Positions 55,740 to 62,095 of a stretch of DNA of 64,000 bases are shown here, one piece after another. The stretch's first letter is position 1, and each line of letters begins with the position of its first letter. The notes beneath the pieces were generated by a model that was not told where the DNA came from, did no database searches, and was given only the letters and a program-made list of their open reading frames with translations. The position numbers and the translations under genes were made by a program. Source of the stretch: a virus (taxonomy: Duplodnaviria; Caudoviricetes); IMG/VR virus record IMGVR_UViG_3300029288_005816, positions 1-64,000 of that record. One strand, written 5' to 3'.

Positions 55740-56891
55740 ATGGAAAAATTAACAACAAAAGAGTTTATTGAAAAAGCTCAAAAAATTCATGGAGATAAAT
55801 TTGATTACTCATTGGTTAAATATGTAAACAACAAAATAAAAGTAAAAATTATTTGCAAAGAGCACGGAGAGTTTGAACAACAACCGTCAACTCATTTACT
55901 GGGTCGTAGCGGATGTAAAAAATGCCATATAAATTCAATACGTAGCAATACGGAAGAATTTATACAAAAAGCGAAAGATATTCATGGAGATAAGTGTGAT
56001 TATTCATTGGTCGAATATGTTGGTAGCAAAGTAAAAGTAAAAATAATTTGTAAAGAACACGGGATATTTGAGCAAACTCCAGTCATGCACATGGCAGGAC
56101 AAAATTGCCCCAAATGTTCAATAGCTGCTAAATTTACTCAAAAGAAATTCGTAGAAAAAGCAAAAGCCATTCACGGAGATAAATATGATTATTCAGAAAC
56201 TATATATAATGGAGCAGAACATAGTGTAAAAATATTTTGTAAAAAATGTAATAATACTTTTGTACAGGTCGCATCTTCCCATATGAAAGGATGGGGATGT
56301 AATGAATGTTCAAAAAAAGCCCACACATTATCTGTAGAAGAATTTATTAACAGAGCCATTAAAAAACATGGTGATAAATATGATTATTCGAGTGTTAACT
56401 ATAAAAGAATGGATGTTAAAGTTGATATTTTTTGTAAAAAATGCAAAAAATATTTTCAACAAACTCCGCACAATCATATGTTTTATGGATGTAAGAATTG
56501 CTCTTCTTCCGACGAGTCAAAAGGAGAAAAAGAAATAAAAAATTTTTTGGAAAAATTAAACATTTCATTTATACAACAAAAAATGTTTGATGATTGTAAA
56601 AATATAAATAAATTGCCCTTTGATTTCTACTTACCACATTTTAACACGTGTATAGAATTTGATGGAAAGCAACACTTTAAACCCATTGGACATTGGGGCG
56701 GTGAAGATGGGTTAAAATCTATACAAAAAAGAGATAAAATAAAAACAGAATATTGTAAATTAAACAATATTCCACTTATTAGGATTTCTTATAAAGATAA
56801 TATTGAATATATTTTAAATAAGACGCTTCAAAATTTCGGCTGTCATCCTGGCGTCATCGACTCCACGATGCATAACACCATCAAATTCTAA
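55740..56891 (+). CDS. free-standing endonuclease with DUF723-like repeats and PD-(D/E)xK/Vsr-like domain
   Basis: 4x HGDKYDYS repeats; LPFDFYL..CIEFDGKQHF. Confidence 0.8.
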   Translation: MEKLTTKEFIEKAQKIHGDKFDYSLVKYVNNKIKVKIICKEHGEFEQQPSTHLLGRSGCKKCHINSIRSNTEEFIQKAKDIHGDKCDYSLVEYVGSKVKVKIICKEHGIFEQTPVMHMAGQNCPKCSIAAKFTQKKFVEKAKAIHGDKYDYSETIYNGAEHSVKIFCKKCNNTFVQVASSHMKGWGCNECSKKAHTLSVEEFINRAIKKHGDKYDYSSVNYKRMDVKVDIFCKKCKKYFQQTPHNHMFYGCKNCSSSDESKGEKEIKNFLEKLNISFIQQKMFDDCKNINKLPFDFYLPHFNTCIEFDGKQHFKPIGHWGGEDGLKSIQKRDKIKTEYCKLNNIPLIRISYKDNIEYILNKTLQNFGCHPGVIDSTMHNTIKF

Positions 56892-57362
56892 ACCCAACTG
56901 CTTAAGTGCATTTGATACACTTGTAGATGTCTTTTCTCCTCTTTTAAAAGCATACCATTCTTTAAGGTTAAAATGTGTTTTTCCAAAGGGATATTTTATT
57001 TTTTTTTCATAACATTCTGATTCTAAAATAATTCTATCATAGTCTCCCCAACTAAACCACATGCGTCGGTCACTTTGATACTCATCGACCAAAATTTTGC
57101 ATGCCTTCTTAAAAGATATTCCTTCTTTATCTACTAATTCTTGGGTGATGGTAGTTAACTTTGTGCAAAACGGACTTATTTCGGAAAACTGCGGTTTAAT
57201 AATTATGCTTCTTGACCCTATTGTTTCTTTTGAAAAATAGTCGACTTGTGCGATACCGATTTCAATTATTTCTTTTGACATTCCTACTGGAATTGGCGAC
57301 ATCCAACAGCAAGCCTCGACATCAATTACTAAAACGAAAGTGTTAATTTTTTCTTTTCTCAT
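56814..57362 (-). CDS. DEDDh 3'-5' exonuclease (ERI-1/KapD-like)
   Basis: IDVEACC, EIIEIG, SWGDYD, HRGVDDA. Confidence 0.88.
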   Translation of the reverse strand: MRKEKINTFVLVIDVEACCWMSPIPVGMSKEIIEIGIAQVDYFSKETIGSRSIIIKPQFSEISPFCTKLTTITQELVDKEGISFKKACKILVDEYQSDRRMWFSWGDYDRIILESECYEKKIKYPFGKTHFNLKEWYAFKRGEKTSTSVSNALKQLGLEFDGVMHRGVDDARMTAEILKRLI

Positions 57363-57918
57363 AAACTTTTATATATTTTGGAGGTACTTCATCTGTAAGA
57401 TAAACATTGTTATCTGTCTTATAAAATTTATATCCCTCATTGCACATTTGTTTTGCTTCTATCACCAATACTACTGATTCAACACCTTTTTGGTGTCTTG
57501 ACCCTGTGTCTTTTGCTTTATTCATATTTTCTTCTGAATATAAATGAACATGATGTCTATTCATTTTTTTAAGCCCTTCTTTCATAATAGAAGGCATAAA
57601 TCTTGGAGCTGTGCCATGATATAATTTAAATGGAGGAATAATAGCTGATAATTGCAAATCCACTTCTATTGAGTGCCCCTGATTTGCTTTTATAAGCTTT
57701 TTATCATCACTAAATTTAAATCTTTGTTTATCAGAAGTTTTTACAACTTCTTCTAAATCTTCAAATGTGAATTCTATTTTGTTTTGAGATTTTTTTATAA
57801 GTAAATCTACATCTGCCCATCCATTTTTATCCAATATTATTCCAATAGAAGATGGATTGTGCCGCAACACATAAGATAAGTGTTTGCTAATTTTTGTTAT
57901 TTTTTCTTTATAAATCAT
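57343..57918 (-). CDS. kptA: RNA 2'-phosphotransferase Tpt1/KptA
   Basis: ISKHLSYVLRH, DKQRF, ANQGHS, LYHGT, RHHVHL, NNVYLT. Confidence 0.93.
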   Translation of the reverse strand: MIYKEKITKISKHLSYVLRHNPSSIGIILDKNGWADVDLLIKKSQNKIEFTFEDLEEVVKTSDKQRFKFSDDKKLIKANQGHSIEVDLQLSAIIPPFKLYHGTAPRFMPSIMKEGLKKMNRHHVHLYSEENMNKAKDTGSRHQKGVESVVLVIEAKQMCNEGYKFYKTDNNVYLTDEVPPKYIKVYEKRKN

Positions 57919-57958
57919 AATGGCAAAAATACACAAAAATTATTAAATAAAAAAATTT

Positions 57959-58186
57959 TTAAGATATAAAATGATTATATAAGCCAATCGGATTTTGATT
58001 TGGTGCCAAACCAGAAACTTGCCCAGTTGCATCTTTTTTAGTATTCTTAATAATAGAACAGTCAATATTAATATCTTCAGAAATACTCTCTCCATTAATA
58101 GAAATTTGTTTATTCTTTAGTCTAGCTTTGATATCCTGGCTAAATAATCCTTGTTGTTTTAATATTTCTGATAATTTTATTAACAT
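57959..58186 (-). CDS. hypothetical protein
   Basis: Operonic ORF. Confidence 0.55.
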   Translation of the reverse strand: MLIKLSEILKQQGLFSQDIKARLKNKQISINGESISEDINIDCSIIKNTKKDATGQVSGLAPNQNPIGLYNHFIS

Positions 58187-58201
58187 ATATCTTGGTTTAA
58201 T

Positions 58202-58387
58202 TTAAAATGGTAACATTTCTTTTTTATAAAAAGTCAATTGTTTCATTTTATTTAAAGTAATAAATTTTTTATTCATCCAATAACCTTTTGTGTAATTTAA
58301 AATAGTTAATTTAATTTGCCTACCAAATTTAGAATATAATTTTTTATTTTCGAAATAATACCCTTGAAACTCTTTTATAAAAACCAT
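58202..58387 (-). CDS. hypothetical protein
   Basis: Operonic ORF next to array edge. Confidence 0.55.
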   Translation of the reverse strand: MVFIKEFQGYYFENKKLYSKFGRQIKLTILNYTKGYWMNKKFITLNKMKQLTFYKKEMLPF

Positions 58388-58410
58388 ATTCTATACTTTA
58401 AAATTATGAT

Positions 58411-58460
58411 AATTAACACAATAAGATATAGACTAAAGTGCGATTATCCACGAGTTATGT
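58411..58460 (+). repeat. degenerate attC0 (left array border)
   Basis: R' GTTATGTGCC at 58454 complements GGCACATAAC at 58737; left arm folds poorly. Confidence 0.45.
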
Positions 58461-58464
58461 GCCA

Positions 58465-58719
58465 TTAACCGATAACATCGTGAATTGACGGCACTCTTGG
58501 TAATAGCTTCCGCATCAATGAGAAAAAACTTCTGTATTCCTCAATCTGCTTTTCCTGTTGTTGAAGTTTGCTTTCCAAATCAACTATGTGTTTGTGTGCC
58601 AAAAACCATTCATTCAATTTACCACTTTCGTCTTTTGAAGTAATGTGTTTTTTTAATTCAGCATACTTGTCGGCACACTCTTTTTTCCCCATTGCTGCTC
58701 CGTGGTCATAATAAGCCAT
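58465..58719 (-). CDS. cassette 1 hypothetical protein
   Basis: ORF enclosed by complementary core sites. Confidence 0.7.
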   Translation of the reverse strand: MAYYDHGAAMGKKECADKYAELKKHITSKDESGKLNEWFLAHKHIVDLESKLQQQEKQIEEYRSFFSLMRKLLPRVPSIHDVIG

Positions 58720-58739
58720 ATCTTTCTAAGTTTAACGGC

Positions 58740-58836
58740 ACATAACAAGGTATATATGTTATACGCCAATGAAGTGTCGTACTTAATTTTAAAACTTTAT
58801 GGTCAGGCGTACAACACATATACCCAACCGTTATAG
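58740..58836 (+). repeat. attC1
   Basis: TAAC-AA-[19-nt arm]...[19-nt arm]-CAACC-GTTA; arms pair 17/19. Confidence 0.85.
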
Positions 58837-58853
58837 GTAATAAAATTTACTAC

Positions 58854-59078
58854 CTACATTCCAATACTTTCATCATATTTAAAGCTAATCAATATAATCG
58901 GTAAAAAAACAATTATTATTACCGTCCAAAAAATTAACAATATACCCATCATCCCACCAATGAAATATTTACCAAATAACGTAAATTCCATTTCATCAAT
59001 GAACTCAAAAAACATACTTTTCCAATAATGTTTGATAATGTTCCAACTTCGTAATAATTGTTTTTTTATAAATTTCAT
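58854..59078 (-). CDS. cassette 2 membrane protein
   Basis: One TM segment; enclosed by GTTATAGGTA/TACCTATAAC. Confidence 0.7.
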   Translation of the reverse strand: MKFIKKQLLRSWNIIKHYWKSMFFEFIDEMEFTLFGKYFIGGMMGILLIFWTVIIIVFLPIILISFKYDESIGM

Positions 59079-59098
59079 AACCCGTAAATTTTACATAC

Positions 59099-59194
59099 CT
59101 ATAACAAAGTGTATAAGTAATGTGGCTAAATTAATTTATCTATAAGTTGAAAGTATGTGCAAAGCCACACTACTCATACACTCAACCGTTAGTA
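59099..59194 (+). repeat. attC2
   Basis: TAAC-AAA-[GTGTATAAGTAATGTGGCT]...[AGCCACACTACTCATACAC]-TCAACC-GTTA; 17/19. Confidence 0.88.
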
Positions 59195-59200
59195 GTAATT

Positions 59201-59407
59201 TTATTTACAATCAAATTTACTATCAAACCACTTATTAAAGTCCTCATATACGCTATTTTCGCCATCCTCACCATAATCAGCGCCTAATTGAACTCCTGCT
59301 GAAAATGCTCTTTGCAAATCATCCTTAGTAAAACTACTACTAACATCAGATATATTCAATTTTTTATCTGAGTCATCAACTCCTATGTTTTTATTTACAT
59401 CTTTCAT
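59201..59407 (-). CDS. cassette 3 hypothetical protein (start lies inside attC3)
   Basis: N-terminus KLNISDVSSS encoded by attC arm. Confidence 0.7.
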   Translation of the reverse strand: MKDVNKNIGVDDSDKKLNISDVSSSFTKDDLQRAFSAGVQLGADYGEDGENSVYEDFNKWFDSKFDCK

Positions 59408-59465
59408 TTTATTTAATTTTTGTGTTATTAATTAAGAAAACTGAATATATCTGTAACCGTTATAA
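59338..59465 (+). repeat. attC3
   Basis: 12-bp perfect arms CAGATATATTCA/TGAATATATCTG. Confidence 0.8.
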
Positions 59466-59480
59466 AACATTAAAACGATT

Positions 59481-59614
59481 TTATAACAAAGTATATAAAT
59501 AATGGTGATGTGGAGTCGAACCACCTACTCGAAGTCTCACCTGAAATTTAGGACTCGAACCTACTACTCGAAGTCTCACCGAACCACCACTATTCATATA
59601 CTCAACCGTTATAA
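59481..59614 (+). repeat. attC4 of ORF-less cassette; loop contains a 30-nt duplication
   Basis: Arms 15/17; units at 59512-59541 and 59551-59580. Confidence 0.85.
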
Positions 59615-59923
59615 TCAAAACTTCCTCCAGTCTAAATATTGTAGCTTTATCTCATTTGAGAAAAATTTAATGTCATTATCATAATCTTTTCGATTTCTTG
59701 AATCCCAAATTAAAACACCACCAGTTATAATAATACCATTTACCATTAATCTATCTCCCTTAACAATTTCAATCTGTAAGCCATTAAATTTTTCTCTTAA
59801 ACGAGTTCGTATTTCCAATTGATATTCCGTCAATTTATCCGTACTGATTATAACATCAGATATAACCAATTTAGGTTTCTGTGATTTAATCAAGTTAAGT
59901 TTTTCTAATAATCTTTTTATCAT
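59615..59923 (-). CDS. cassette 5 hypothetical protein (start inside attC5)
   Basis: KLVISDVIIS encoded by attC arm. Confidence 0.7.
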   Translation of the reverse strand: MIKRLLEKLNLIKSQKPKLVISDVIISTDKLTEYQLEIRTRLREKFNGLQIEIVKGDRLMVNGIIITGGVLIWDSRNRKDYDNDIKFFSNEIKLQYLDWRKF

Positions 59924-59979
59924 ATTTTAAGTTTTTGTATTTCAATTCCTAAACTGGTTATATCTGAGAACCGTTAGCA
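59848..59979 (+). repeat. attC5
   Basis: Arms CAGATATAACCAATTTAGG/CCTAAACTGGTTATATCTG 18/19. Confidence 0.85.
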
Positions 59980-60213
59980 ACAATGTTTTATGACCATAAC
60001 ACTTCCATATAAACCAACCGCCTCAGTAAGCATACTTTTAAAAAGCCTACATTCGTTGCTATTATAGCCTTTTTTTGCTACATAATTATCTAGTTTTTGT
60101 TGAAAGTCATCAGGCAATTGACTTTTTAAAAATTCCTGTGCATCTTTCCAAAAATCAACACTGTTGCTAACATCACGTATAGCACATTGCTGTTTGTTCT
60201 TCGTATTTTTCAT
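59974..60213 (-). CDS. cassette 6 hypothetical protein (stop in core site, start inside attC6)
   Basis: QQCAIRDVSNS; TAA is the complement of the TTA in GTTAGCAACA. Confidence 0.7.
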   Translation of the reverse strand: MKNTKNKQQCAIRDVSNSVDFWKDAQEFLKSQLPDDFQQKLDNYVAKKGYNSNECRLFKSMLTEAVGLYGSVMVIKHCC

Positions 60214-60287
60214 CGTAAATAATTTTTAAGTTTGTAATTCTAATTAAGTTATACATAAACAACGTTCCATACACGCAGCCATTATAG
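60165..60287 (+). repeat. attC6 (partly degenerate, R' = ATT)
   Basis: TGTTGCTAAC complements GTTAGCAACA; imperfect arms. Confidence 0.65.
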
Positions 60288-60297
60288 GTAATAAAAT

Positions 60298-60444
60298 TTA
60301 CTTGCCATAAATCTTTGTTAAACCTTCTTGTTCTCTTTTAGATTTACATTTATCACAATATTTCATCGTCCAAGCAGTTCCCTTGCTTTGAATAAGCCAT
60401 TCACTTGTTGCTTTTTTTCCACAATTACATTTTCCGTGCATCAT
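60298..60444 (-). CDS. cassette 7 small zinc-finger-like protein
   Basis: MMHGKCNCG...YCDKC; start placed by analogy with the cassette 2 leader. Confidence 0.55.
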   Translation of the reverse strand: MMHGKCNCGKKATSEWLIQSKGTAWTMKYCDKCKSKREQEGLTKIYGK

Positions 60445-60463
60445 ATCCGTAAATTTTACATAC

Positions 60464-60485
60464 CTATTACGACCAACCGTTATAA
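60464..60485 (+). repeat. collapsed attC7 (arms deleted)
   Basis: TACCTATTAC-GACCAACC-GTTATAA. Confidence 0.65.
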
Positions 60486-60752
60486 ACAAGTTTGTTTAAT
60501 TCTTTCAATTTCACTTTTCATCATTTGTTGTGGCGTATGATATTTTTCACAAATTTCACATTGCCAAGTGCCAGACCCAACAAAAGCAACTGGAATACCA
60601 CAGCAAATTCCAGCGAAAAAATCTAATTTATCATTCGTGTCACAAACCTGGTTTATAATACCAAATAAACTCAATAAAAAGTTTTGTGCTTCTATTTCAG
60701 TTATACAACCTTGTTCAAGGTCTTTTGCTATTTTTAATATTTGTTCTTTCAT
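60480..60752 (-). CDS. cassette 8 hypothetical protein with zinc ribbon (start inside attC8)
   Basis: LLSLFGIINQ; CCG..WQCEIC; stop in core site. Confidence 0.7.
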   Translation of the reverse strand: MKEQILKIAKDLEQGCITEIEAQNFLLSLFGIINQVCDTNDKLDFFAGICCGIPVAFVGSGTWQCEICEKYHTPQQMMKSEIERIKQTCL

Positions 60753-60785
60753 ATCTTTTACTGTGTTTATTTGTAACTATTAGAC
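60653..60785 (+). repeat. attC8 (degenerate cores TAAT/ATTA)
   Basis: Arms CAAATAAACTCAATAAAAA/CTTTTACTGTGTTTATTTG. Confidence 0.65.
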
Positions 60786-60794
60786 ACAATACTA

Positions 60795-60977
60795 CTATAC
60801 TTTTTTATAGATTGAGTTAAAATCCCTATCAGAAATGAATTGTCTTTTGCCTCTGTATAAGTAAAATATCAAATCAGTTCCTCTTTGTTTATTAGTTCCC
60901 TTTTTTATGTTATATTCATTTCCTGTTTGGATATTTTTATATCTTCCAAATTCTCTGATGTTACTAAGTTTTTCCAT
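60795..60977 (-). CDS. hypothetical protein
   Basis: Short ORF continuing the array. Confidence 0.6.
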   Translation of the reverse strand: MEKLSNIREFGRYKNIQTGNEYNIKKGTNKQRGTDLIFYLYRGKRQFISDRDFNSIYKKV

Positions 60978-61019
60978 AATTTACAGTATTGCGCCAATTA
61001 ATATAAATATCAAAAATGC

Positions 61020-61196
61020 TTATAATACACTTTTTTTAAATTTATACATTTCATGGTTATGAAATTCATATTCCATTCTTTTATAGTCTTTAAATAAACT
61101 TTTTACTTCTCTTACTTCTAAACACTTGAATTTCCTAATACAATTTCCATAATAGTAAAATTGCCCTATTTCTAAATCATTTATAGTTAAACCCAT
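61020..61196 (-). CDS. hypothetical protein (58 aa, not in ORF track)
   Basis: Hand translation MGLTINDLEIGQFYYY...KKSVL. Confidence 0.55.
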   Translation of the reverse strand: MGLTINDLEIGQFYYYGNCIRKFKCLEVREVKSLFKDYKRMEYEFHNHEMYKFKKSVL

Positions 61197-61228
61197 ATAT
61201 TTAAGTATTTTAAAATTTTCTAGTATAA

Positions 61229-61510
61229 TTATAGCATTACTTTATATACCAACATTGTGTCTGAAAAATGAGACCTGTTTCCATCTATTAGCCTGAAAGC
61301 ATTTTCAAAGACGCCTTCCCACTCTGTTGGAATTGGTTCTGTCTTTTTAAAAACATAAGCTCCCTTACGAAATCCTCCATGTCCACTATCATCTCCATCT
61401 ATTGGAAAATCTACAAAATGTTCGTATACTTTTAATTCTCCGAACGTTAATGGCTTCGACATTGTAGTTCTAGCCAGCACATTTTTATTGGACTCTTTAT
61501 TTTTTTTCAT
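61229..61510 (-). CDS. hypothetical protein
   Basis: LTFGELKVYEHFVDFPIDGDDSGHGGF. Confidence 0.65.
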   Translation of the reverse strand: MKKNKESNKNVLARTTMSKPLTFGELKVYEHFVDFPIDGDDSGHGGFRKGAYVFKKTEPIPTEWEGVFENAFRLIDGNRSHFSDTMLVYKVML

Positions 61511-61533
61511 TGTTATATTTTATAATAATTTTA

Positions 61534-61719
61534 TTAAATATATCGTACAATTTTATCTTTTTCTCCATTAAGAGCATTTTTGGCATATTCTTCAGCTTGT
61601 ACAACCATCCTGTCCATGCAAGTTTTTTTATCTTCGCATCCATATGTGTTTGAGACCAGCCTTAATGCTTCTTTTATGGATTCAAGTTGAAATTTATAAA
61701 TAGTTATTTTTTCCATCAT
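61534..61719 (-). CDS. hypothetical protein
   Basis: KITIYKFQLESIKEALRL. Confidence 0.6.
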   Translation of the reverse strand: MMEKITIYKFQLESIKEALRLVSNTYGCEDKKTCMDRMVVQAEEYAKNALNGEKDKIVRYI

Positions 61720-61727
61720 TATTTATT

Positions 61728-62045
61728 TTATGCAAGCAATTCAAAATCGTACATGACCCCATTTCCAACGTATGACAAACAAACATAATCATTATCATTC
61801 CAGATGTCAATTTCATATCTCAACTCTTCATCATTCCAATCAAATGACCCAATTAATTCTTTGTGTTCATGAAGTTCTCTCATAAATTTAAATTTGAAAC
61901 GTTGCCCTTCCTTTATTGACTTTCCATTTTTGTCTTCCCTTACAATGGTAAGTTGTTCTATTTTTGTCTCTAAATCATTAATTGTTTCAGTGCATTCGAT
62001 GTATTTTCCACCGATTTTTGCATATACTTTACCTTTGTATTCCAT
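61728..62045 (-). CDS. YopX-like protein
   Basis: DKNGKSIKEGQRF. Confidence 0.5.
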   Translation of the reverse strand: MEYKGKVYAKIGGKYIECTETINDLETKIEQLTIVREDKNGKSIKEGQRFKFKFMRELHEHKELIGSFDWNDEELRYEIDIWNDNDYVCLSYVGNGVMYDFELLA

Positions 62046-62071: not shown

Positions 62072-62095
62072 ATACGTATTTTTTGGCTATTTGTT
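62072..62095 (-). promoter_or_regulatory. ECF-like promoter AAC-N16-CGTAT (would transcribe into the cassette array)
   Basis: TGTAAC...ACGTATAA. Confidence 0.7.

What the first reader, a model, noticed from the sequence alone, without database searches (positions are those of the whole stretch)
59201..60785. Protein N-termini encoded by the attC arm itself (recurrent D-V-S/I peptide)
Seen: in cassettes 3, 5, 6 and 8 the ATG and first 15-35 codons lie inside the attC. The left arm and core are read antisense as KLNISDVSSS, KLVISDVIIS, QCAIRDVSNS and LSLFGIINQ, while the right arm sits upstream of the start codon. In cassettes 6 and 8 the stop TAA is the complement of the core TTA. Cassette 1 ends in HDVIG*, a possible relic left arm at about 58469-58480. 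Inference: the recombination site doubles as translation-initiation region and coding sequence, so the shared 'DVS' N-terminal motif is a DNA-site footprint rather than a protein motif. The hairpin could also gate translation.
Basis: partly seen in the sequence, partly recalled or inferred. Interest (0 to 1): 0.75.

Follow-up and report, generated by a model that had tools for sequence, protein, structure and literature searches.

The report
Recombination hairpins that encode protein starts
In a large phage, small mobile gene cassettes carry a folded recombination site at their front end, and in one class of cassette the gene's start codon and first 19-36 codons lie inside that site, so the DNA site dictates a recurring "I-S-D-V" peptide in otherwise unrelated proteins.

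Summary
Window 58455-60779 holds eight integron-like cassettes. Each has a small minus-strand ORF plus an attC-like hairpin. The hairpin has a 14-bp R box, a 2-nt/5-nt internal loop, an 11-20-bp L box and a loop of 11-276 nt.

In cassettes 3, 5, 6 and 8 the ATG lies in the hairpin loop. The ORF then reads through the L'' and R'' arms. I-S-D-V is the antisense reading of ATATCTG + AT + GTTA.

I collected 96 such sites from 60 sources, nearly all IMG/VR phage contigs.
- Long-loop sites (70 nt or more) almost always hold the ORF start (29 of 35). Short-loop sites do not (2 of 49).
- In 31 scorable long-loop sites the ORF frame has 0.06 stops across the arms, against 1.7 and 4.6 in the other two frames.
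- Conservation of the arm is at nucleotide level: pN/pS is 3.2 with pS 0.04, the arms covary, and the residue before V follows the spacer dinucleotide.

The leader-plus-hairpin behaves as a swappable module, found on unrelated cargos.

This contig has no recombinase. Related contigs have a Xer-like tyrosine recombinase beside the array that lacks the IntI-specific insert.

Translation of the leaders and translational gating by the hairpin are untested. The HDVIG "relic" is not supported. Cassette 6's site is decayed.

Other first-reader notes of this scan had already flagged this same stretch on this genome.

The parts
58455..58830 (+). Cassette 1. ORF 58465-58719 (minus strand) lies wholly outside the hairpin. 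R'' 58733-58746, L'' 58749-58767, L' 58806-58824, bulge CAACC, crossover G 58830. Short-loop (type A) site.
   Evidence: The bottom strand folds better than the top strand (-27.9 against -22.0 kcal/mol).
58831..59188 (+). Cassette 2. ORF 58854-59078 (minus strand) lies outside the hairpin. R'' 59092-59105, L'' 59108-59127, L' 59163-59182, crossover G 59188. Type A site.
   Evidence: RNA fold z = -5.4.
59189..59459 (+). Cassette 3. ORF 59201-59407 (minus strand) starts in the 85-nt loop. R'' 59331-59344, spacer AT, L'' 59347-59363, L' 59437-59453, bulge TAACC, crossover G 59459. Its leader MKDVNKNIGVDDSDKKLNISDV belongs to the B1 leader family.
59460..59608 (+). Cassette 4. It has no ORF, only a site. 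R'' 59480-59488, L'' 59490-59507, L' 59585-59602, crossover G 59608. The loop holds two 30-nt direct repeats.
59609..59973 (+). Cassette 5. ORF 59615-59923 (minus strand) starts in the loop. R'' 59841-59854, L'' 59856-59875, L' 59948-59967 (95% complementary), bulge GAACC, crossover G 59973. Leader MIKRLLEKLNLIKSQKPKLVISDV.
   Evidence: z = -5.0.
59974..60281 (+). Cassette 6. ORF 59974-60213 (minus strand) has its stop in the core TTA and starts in what was once the loop. R'' 60158-60171. The L box is decayed to 7 of 11 pairs, and the core G is mutated to A at 60281.
   Evidence: z = +1.3.
60282..60479 (+). Cassette 7. The ORF is 60298-60444 (minus strand; the ORF listing frame runs to 60489 from an upstream TTG). 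It has an R box only and no L box. Its ends are the same as those of cassette 2. Crossover G 60479.
60480..60779 (+). Cassette 8. ORF 60480-60752 (minus strand) has its stop in the core TTA and starts in the loop. R'' 60646-60659 ends in TAAT. L'' 60662-60672, L' 60763-60773, bulge TAACT. The core is A at 60779, which pairs with the T of TAAT. The leader belongs to the B4 family.
58442..58454 (+). Left end of the array. The sequence ..CCACGAG|TTA resembles the right half of the ACAAATAAACGAG|TTA sites of contig G002.
62072..62095 (-). Nearest upstream copy of the phage's promoter-like motif AAC-N16-CGTAT on the ORF strand. It could drive read-through transcription of the array.
   Evidence: 13 copies on the minus strand of the window, none inside the array on that strand. 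This is an inference.

Best explanation
Window 58455-60779 is an array of eight mobile gene cassettes of an integron-like system. The system is found in large, low-GC phage contigs, probably of Bacteroidota hosts.

A cassette starts with TTA and ends with G. On the plus strand it reads: R' box, ORF body, R'' box, 2-nt spacer, L'' arm, loop, L' arm, 5-nt bulge, G. When the cassette is a circle, R'' pairs with R' and L'' pairs with L'. This gives one long hairpin, which is best formed by the bottom strand.

The ORFs lie on that bottom strand, so the site sits at the 5' end of the gene. In the long-loop class of site, the loop carries the 5' leader, the ATG and 15-27 codons. The ORF then continues through the L'' and R'' arms into the cargo.

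The N-terminal (L/I)-S-(D/V/E/G)-V-x-x-S is therefore the translation of the L-box end (ATATCTG), the spacer, the invariant core GTTA and the second GTT of the R box.

Shown here:
- the anatomy of the site;
- covariation of the arms;
- cassette boundaries at the core;
- an open frame specific to this site class;
- nucleotide-level conservation of the arm;
- modular reuse of leaders.

Inferred:
- recombination is by a Xer-like tyrosine recombinase acting on the folded bottom strand, supplied in trans for this contig;
- the leaders are translated;
- the leaders mainly act as ready-made translation start regions, with a tolerated passenger peptide.
For: 1. Chain of inverted repeats. The R'' box of each cassette is complementary to the start of its own cassette.

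2. A wider dataset of 96 unique sites from 60 sources has the same geometry. R-box positions 5-10 and 12-14 and L-box positions 1-3 and 8-11 each show 3-4 Watson-Crick pair types. Of the non-Watson-Crick pairs, 129 are G.T on the bottom strand, 4 are G.T on the top strand and 34 are other mismatches. Position 11 is C.A in 92 of 96 sites.

3. The same cassette occurs in different contigs. Identity begins at GTTA and ends at ..CCGTTA, after the hairpin.

4. Where the ORF starts. For loops of 70 nt or more it starts in the loop in 29 of 35 sites. For loops of 40-60 nt it starts there in 2 of 49. For short loops it starts there in 0 of 12. In 31 scorable long-loop sites, stops across the arms plus 45 nt of loop number 0.06 in the ORF frame, against 1.71 and 4.61 in the other frames. 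These sites fall into 15 loop families. In the other site classes all three frames carry about 1.5-1.8 stops.

5. Footprint.
- 25 of 29 sites read GTT as a codon. The codon triplet TCT-GAT-GTT occurs in 15 of them, and spacer variants give V, E or G in place of D.
- In the B1 family the coding 3' arm varies at 0.05 per column, the non-coding loop at 0.5 and the loop-coded leader at 0.69.
- In the B4 family pN/pS is 3.2 in the arm and 0.88 over the whole leader.

6. Modularity. Cargo homologues of ORF 5 carry at least three different leaders, all joined at ISDV|I. The ORF 8 leader is fused to at least 15 unrelated cargos.

7. Recombinase. A 268-aa tyrosine recombinase lies directly beside arrays in G003 and G007, and one is present in the close relative G001.

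8. Metagenome contigs break at the sites, and summed depth there rises to about 2-9 times the flanks.
Against: - There is no direct evidence that the loop ATGs are used. No RNA or protein data exist.
- In-frame TTG codons lie just past the arms, at codon 31 in ORFs 3 and 5.
- pN/pS of the leaders is 0.4 (B1) and 0.88 (B4), so coding constraint on them is weak.
- No recombinase is present on this contig, which is estimated 57% complete. None is present on a complete 130-kb phage that has an array.
- The recombinase lacks the IntI-specific insert, so recognition of a folded site is an assumption.
- G.T wobbles on the ORF-sense strand fit an RNA hairpin as well as a DNA one.
- Sites 6 and 8 in this window have mutated cores and may no longer recombine.
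- Site selection for the dataset required near-perfect arms, so the percentage of paired positions is inflated by construction. The types of mismatch are not affected by this.
Confidence: 0.72

Rival explanations
1. The leaders are not translated. The real starts lie downstream of the R'' arm, for example at the TTG at codon 31, and the upstream open frame is an accident of AT-rich, related sequences.
For: In-frame TTG codons lie shortly after the arms in ORFs 3 and 5. Strong amino-acid conservation of the ORF 5 family begins at about residue 25. Leader pN/pS is near 1 in the B4 family.
Against: The frame is open in 29 of 31 long-loop sites from 15 loop families, while the other two frames carry 1.7 and 4.6 stops. 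Short-loop sites show no such bias. In the cassette shared by L064 and L147, 84 of 119 codons lie in the loop, so the arms certainly sit inside an ORF there. Downstream starts would leave proteins of 38-72 aa or fewer. B1 leaders have pN/pS 0.40, with second codon positions least variable.
Confidence: 0.1
2. The leader is a selected protein tag, for example a signal for packaging, targeting or turnover. The hairpin complement evolved around that tag. On this view the motif is a protein motif first.
For: Leaders are shared by many unrelated cargos. The first 15 residues of the B4 leader are almost invariant. B1 shows pN/pS 0.40. A homologue outside any array keeps the arm-coded residues (L270).
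Against: Synonymous sites of the invariant B4 block and of the arm are conserved too: pS is 0.18 and 0.04, and pN/pS in the arm is 3.2. The non-coding part of the loop is as conserved as the coding part. The residue before V is free to be D, V, E or G. Four sites read the core in other frames. The same core and L-box motif occur in sites that are not coding.
Confidence: 0.1
3. The hairpins act mainly on the mRNA, as a translational operator, a processing site or a stabiliser. They are not DNA recombination sites, and the repeated units spread by ordinary homologous recombination.
For: The wobble pairs are G.U on the mRNA-sense strand. The stems flank the start region. attC stem-loops are known to affect translation in integrons (PMC8876359, section 3.2).
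Against: The R'' arm pairs with a sequence on the far side of the ORF (70-2400 nt away), and the two become adjacent only in a circle. Identical cassettes in different contigs end exactly at the GTTA cores. Arrays sit next to a tyrosine recombinase. The geometry is identical in sites far from any start codon.
Confidence: 0.06

Closest known systems
Integron gene cassettes and attC sites, including clusters of attC sites lacking an integrase (CALINs) reported in virulent phages (Qi et al. 2023, PMC9892861)
   Same: Both are arrays of single-gene units, each with an imperfect hairpin site built from an R box and an L box. The core is G|TTA. R'' is complementary to the start of its own cassette. 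The bottom strand is the better folder. Loop length is variable. Arrays can occur without an integrase, and a Xer/IntI-clade tyrosine recombinase lies beside some arrays.
   Different: The ORFs lie on the bottom strand, so the site is at the 5' end of the gene. There are no extrahelical bases. Instead there is a fixed 2-nt/5-nt internal loop and a conserved G.T at R-box position 11. The R box is 14 bp long (GTTA-N6-(A/G)TT). The recombinase lacks the IntI-specific insert. Loops carry start codons and leaders. I found no match among cultured phages.
ORF-11, ORF-17 and ORF-18 in attI1, and short ORFs within attC, of class 1 integrons (reviewed in PMC8876359)
   Same: A recombination site carries a translation start region and a short coding sequence. 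A stop codon can be supplied by the GTTRRRY core. The peptide sequence itself matters little.
   Different: Those are separate short ORFs that help the next gene by translational coupling. Here the cassette's own protein starts inside its own site and is read through both left arms as an N-terminal fusion.
PeSL (promoter-early stem-loop) cassettes of T4-type phages (from my own knowledge; Arbiol et al. 2010, not read here)
   Same: Small phage ORFs in a plastic region are separated by conserved stem-loop elements, and shuffling is modular.
   Different: PeSLs are promoter-plus-terminator repeats thought to recombine by homology. Here there is no sigma-70-type promoter or terminator signal. Each unit has cassette-specific R boxes that pair across the ORF, and a fixed core crossover.

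Membership tests
Integron cassette / attC | Imperfect palindrome with R''-L''...L'-R' boxes, in which R'' is complementary to the first bases of its own cassette | tested here: met
   The feature holds for 7 of the 8 window cassettes and for all 96 sites collected elsewhere.
Integron cassette / attC | Core consensus G|TTRRRY and RYYYAAC | tested here: inconclusive
   GTTA and TAAC are invariant in 96 of 96 sites. Position 5 is T or G. Positions 6-7 do not follow RRY. IntegronFinder's attC model could not be run.
Integron cassette / attC | Extrahelical bases in the L box that mark the recombining strand | tested here: not met
   The L boxes pair without bulges. The asymmetry is a 2-nt against 5-nt internal loop plus G.T wobbles.
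Integron cassette / attC | ORF on the top strand, upstream of its attC | tested here: not met
   All eight window ORFs, and the ORFs of the arrays elsewhere, lie on the bottom strand with the site at their 5' end.
Integron cassette / attC | The cassette is a discrete mobile unit bounded at the core | tested here: met
   Four cassette pairs in different contigs share identity exactly from GTTA to CCGTTA.
Integron (complete) | IntI integrase with the IntI-specific additional domain | tested here: not met
   G000 has none. The array-adjacent recombinase elsewhere scores 151 bits against TIGR02249 (cutoff 265). It has 31 residues where IntI4 has 79. It aligns end to end with XerA.
Integron (complete) | attI site and Pc promoter next to intI | not tested
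   The left end at 58442-58454 is a half-site. A promoter-like motif lies at 62072, on the far side of the array.
CALIN | Two or more attC sites with no integrase nearby | tested here: met
   Eight sites and no PF00589 hit in the 90.7-kb contig. This holds only if the sites are accepted as attC-like.
T4-type PeSL cassettes | A conserved early promoter plus a terminator-like stem-loop between ORFs | tested here: not met
   Promoter-like sites number 10, against 15.7 expected. Terminator-like sites number 0.

The most novel reading that the evidence does not exclude
The L-box-plus-loop is an exchangeable 'expression head' made of a 5' leader, an ATG and a leader peptide. The recombination system itself grafts it onto any cargo, through a second exchange at the R'' core. 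On this reading these phages build N-terminal fusion genes by site-specific recombination. Some heads, such as the B4 leader with its invariant 23-nt block, would carry a function of their own: a protein tag or a binding site.
Probability: 0.2. Interest if true: 0.85.

Novelty: new variant of a known kind. Interest (0 to 1): 0.72.

Why it matters
This is a clear natural case in which a folded recombination site and a protein-coding start share the same nucleotides. The DNA structure, not protein function, writes a recurring peptide into many unrelated proteins. Anyone mining phage proteomes would misread that peptide as a domain or a signal.

It also exposes a widespread integron-like cassette system in uncultured large phages. 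The system has its own site geometry, inverted gene orientation and a Xer-like recombinase.

If the leader modules are moved by the recombinase, the system would give cassettes a built-in translation start. That bears on an open question in integron biology: how promoterless, start-less cassettes come to be made and expressed.

Tried and rejected
- Rfam scan of 57500-61500: only sub-threshold chance hits.
- Pfam and PHROGs on the eight cassette ORFs and their neighbours: no function assigned.
- Megablast of 56000-62000, and distant blastn of a type A site, against cultured phages: no match.
- Closest relative G001 (Tpt1 85% identical): synteny stops at about 58025 and there is no array at that place, so no allele comparison was possible.
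- One scan of bacterial and archaeal genomes with a 15-mer from the site: 120 stretches, nearly all chance. Only a few small MAG contigs show the cassette signature. The one isolate among the top candidates (Pedobacter) is a chance match.
- Public sequencing runs: no RNA holder listed.
- Read laying gave contigs only. The joints between cassette 2 and cassette 7 ends have unknown letters between them and short sides, so I did not use them as evidence of excision.
- Model with the crossover at the R'' core (cargo travelling with the downstream hairpin): rejected as the main route, because in all 4 pairs of shared cassettes the cargo travels with the hairpin at its 5' end.
- HDVIG* as a relic arm: rejected.
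- tRNA in the loop of cassette 4: none found.
- Sigma-70-type promoters and terminators in the array: not enriched.
- A ninth cassette beyond 60779: no matching R'' found.
Full report
**What the window is.** The window is the first 64 kb of a 90,754-bp IMG/VR virus record. It has 27.7% G+C and is estimated 57% complete. Genes run mostly on the minus strand. The octamer AACCGTTA occurs six times on the plus strand within 58826-60482. Only 0.78 copies are expected in the whole window, and there is just one other copy, on the other strand.

**Anatomy of the array.**
- The repeat finder shows a chain of alternating inverted repeats.
- After each ..AACC-G|TTA, the next 13-16 bases are complementary to a block ending in TAAC that lies 125-260 nt further on. 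I call these the R' box and the R'' box.
- After that TAAC and a 2-nt spacer comes an 11-20-nt arm (L''). Its partner (L') ends 5 nt before the next G|TTA.
- Cutting at G|TTA gives eight units: 58455-58830, 58831-59188, 59189-59459, 59460-59608, 59609-59973, 59974-60281, 60282-60479 and 60480-60779.
- Closed into a circle, each unit forms one long hairpin: R box, a 2-nt against 5-nt internal loop, L box, then a variable loop.
- The minus-strand version of each hairpin is 3-6 kcal/mol more stable than the plus-strand one.
- This is the classic signature of integron cassettes, except that every ORF lies on the bottom strand. The site is therefore at the 5' end of its gene.

**The observation.**
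- ORFs 59201-59407, 59615-59923, 59974-60213 and 60480-60752 begin at an ATG between L'' and L'. They read through L'', the spacer and R''. That puts 25.7, 27.7, 18.7 and 35.7 codons inside the site.
- ATA-TCT-GAT-GTT-A (I-S-D-V) is the reverse complement of TAAC + AT + CAGATAT.
- The stops of ORFs 6 and 8 are the complement of the core TTA.
- Sites 3, 5 and 8 fold significantly as RNA (z = -3.0, -5.0, -2.9). Site 6 does not (z = +1.3); its L' arm and core G are mutated. Site 8 has a T-A pair in place of the invariant C-G pair at the core.
- The supposed relic behind HDVIG* is a single heptamer with no partner arm, and I reject it.

**Is it more than this window?**
- Pattern scans of IMG/VR, followed by a detector for R'/R'' and L''/L' pairing, gave 96 unique sites of the same geometry from 60 sources.
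- The arrays include 13-15 cassettes in 6 kb (L147), at least 20 cassettes in contig G002, and one in a complete 130.6-kb genome with terminal repeats.
- G002 shares only eight weak protein matches with this phage. Yet its sites are 76-90% identical to ours over about 100 nt.
- Across the 96 sites, the variable R- and L-box positions show three or four Watson-Crick pair types each.
- Among the non-Watson-Crick pairs, 129 are A.C on the top strand (that is, G.T on the bottom strand), 4 are G.T on the top strand and 34 are other mismatches. R-box position 11 is C.A in 92 of 96 sites.
- Site selection demanded near-perfect arms, so the fraction paired is inflated by construction. The kind of mismatch is not.

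**The mobile unit.** Four cassettes occur in two unrelated contexts each. In every case identity starts at GTTA and ends at ..CCGTTA after the hairpin. The upstream hairpin and the following cassette are unrelated. So the unit is R' - cargo - R'' - L'' - loop - L' - bulge - G, and the start region in the loop travels with its own cargo. In four metagenomes, contigs break at the sites, and summed depth there rises to about 2-9 times the flanks.

**Are the loop starts real?**
- In sites with loops of 70 nt or more, the longest bottom-strand ORF starts in the loop in 29 of 35 cases.
- With loops of 40-60 nt it does so in 2 of 49 cases. With short loops it does so in 0 of 12.
- Across the arms plus 45 nt of loop, 31 scorable long-loop sites carry 0.06 stops in the ORF frame, against 1.71 and 4.61 in the other two frames. 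These sites fall into 15 loop families. The other site classes carry about 1.5-1.8 stops in all three frames.
- In the cassette shared by L064 and L147, 84 of 119 codons lie in the loop.
- Downstream alternative starts in the window ORFs would leave very small products.
- I take the leaders as coding. Translation itself is unproven.

**Footprint or protein motif?**
- The core GTTA is invariant whether or not the site is coding.
- 25 of 29 sites read GTT as a codon and 4 use other frames.
- The residue before V follows the spacer: AT gives D, AA gives V, TT gives E, AC gives G.
- In the B1 leader family, to which cassette 3 belongs, variation per column is 0.05 in the coding arm, 0.5 in the non-coding part of the loop, 0.69 in the loop-coded leader and 2.5 beyond the core. 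pN/pS of this leader is 0.40.
- In the B4 family (cassette 8), pN/pS is 0.88 for the whole leader and 3.2 for the arm plus core, where pS is 0.043. A paired change in the two arms turns G into D. A 23-nt block in the loop is invariant, synonymous sites included.
- So the arm is conserved as nucleic acid. The peptide is largely a by-product.

**Modularity.** Homologues of the ORF 5 cargo carry the window's leader, a B1 leader or other N-termini, always joined at ISDV|I. At DNA level, the window and L269 share the cargo and both R boxes but have different L-box/loop modules. In L270 the cargo sits outside any array, with the 5' arm lost. The ORF 8 leader is fused to at least 15 unrelated cargos. 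The canonical crossover does not explain this exchange, and it remains unexplained.

**Recombinase.** This contig has none. In G003 and G007 a tyrosine recombinase of about 268 aa lies directly beside the array, and is itself flanked by sites. It scores best against the XerA-type model (176 bits, below the cutoff) and scores 151 bits against the integron-integrase model (cutoff 265). Against IntI4 it has 31 residues where IntI4 has 79. It aligns end to end with XerA. Its nearest cultured relatives are integrases of Cellulophaga and Polaribacter phages, at 36-40% identity.

**Comparison with what is known.** CALINs in virulent phages have been reported and shown to recombine with IntI1 (PMC9892861). 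Short ORFs and start regions inside attI1 and attC are known to aid translation, with stops supplied by the core (PMC8876359). What is new here is threefold. The cassette's own protein starts inside its own site and is read through both left arms. The leader-hairpin is reused as a module. And the system departs from integrons in gene orientation, site geometry and recombinase type.

**Translational gating.** This is untested. In the RNA folds the AUG lies in the large loop.

**Transcription.** The phage's promoter-like motif AAC-N16-CGTAT lies upstream of the array at 62072 and 62333, and is absent inside the array on the ORF strand. This fits read-through transcription of the cassettes.

Noticed in passing
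L257:4970-6253 and L258:6606-8167: The Xer-like recombinase genes beside the arrays are themselves flanked by cassette-type sites, as if each were a cassette. Each is followed by a conserved small ORF that begins MLVD(I/V)SK..EEEVLSVIR.
   Followed up: partly
L009:6527-19074 (G002 26.5-39 kb) and L007: A second site class, ACAAATAAACGAG|TTA, has loops of about 100 nt or more. These loops hold a Bacteroidota-type promoter-like motif (TTTG, about 20 nt, TAtaTTTG) on the ORF strand. The left end of the window array (..CCACGAG|TTA at 58454) resembles this class.
   Followed up: partly
window 59460-59608: Cassette 4 has no ORF. Its loop holds two 30-nt direct repeats (59512-59541 and 59551-59580). 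On the minus strand they read like a tRNA T-arm and 3' end. ARAGORN finds no tRNA, and the Rfam tRNA-Sec hit is only 19 bits.
   Followed up: partly
window 58830-58850 / 59085-59105 and 60281-60301 / 60449-60469: Cassettes 2 and 7 share nearly identical R' and R'' boxes of about 21 nt, and the same 5' leader (GTAAAATTTACGG..ATG), but they carry unrelated ORFs.
   Followed up: no
96-site dataset: 24 of 93 cassette ORFs use the complement of the core TTA as their stop codon. Another 39 stop 10-13 nt from the cassette end, in the conserved ATT(A) of the R' box.
   Followed up: yes
window 9297-62356, minus strand: The motif AAC-N16-CGTAT occurs 13 times on the minus strand and once on the plus strand, where 0.55 are expected. 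Two copies, at 62072 and 62333, lie just upstream of the array.
   Followed up: partly
window 57959-58186: This 75-aa ORF matches only the last 21 residues of a 293-aa protein of the close relative G001. Synteny with G001 ends here, so the array sits at a break point in the genome.
   Followed up: partly
L270:2204-3276 and L271: A homologue of the cassette 5 cargo lies outside any array, directly after an RNase T-like gene. It keeps the arm-coded residues but has lost the 5' arm and the R' box. It looks like a fixed, domesticated former cassette.
   Followed up: partly
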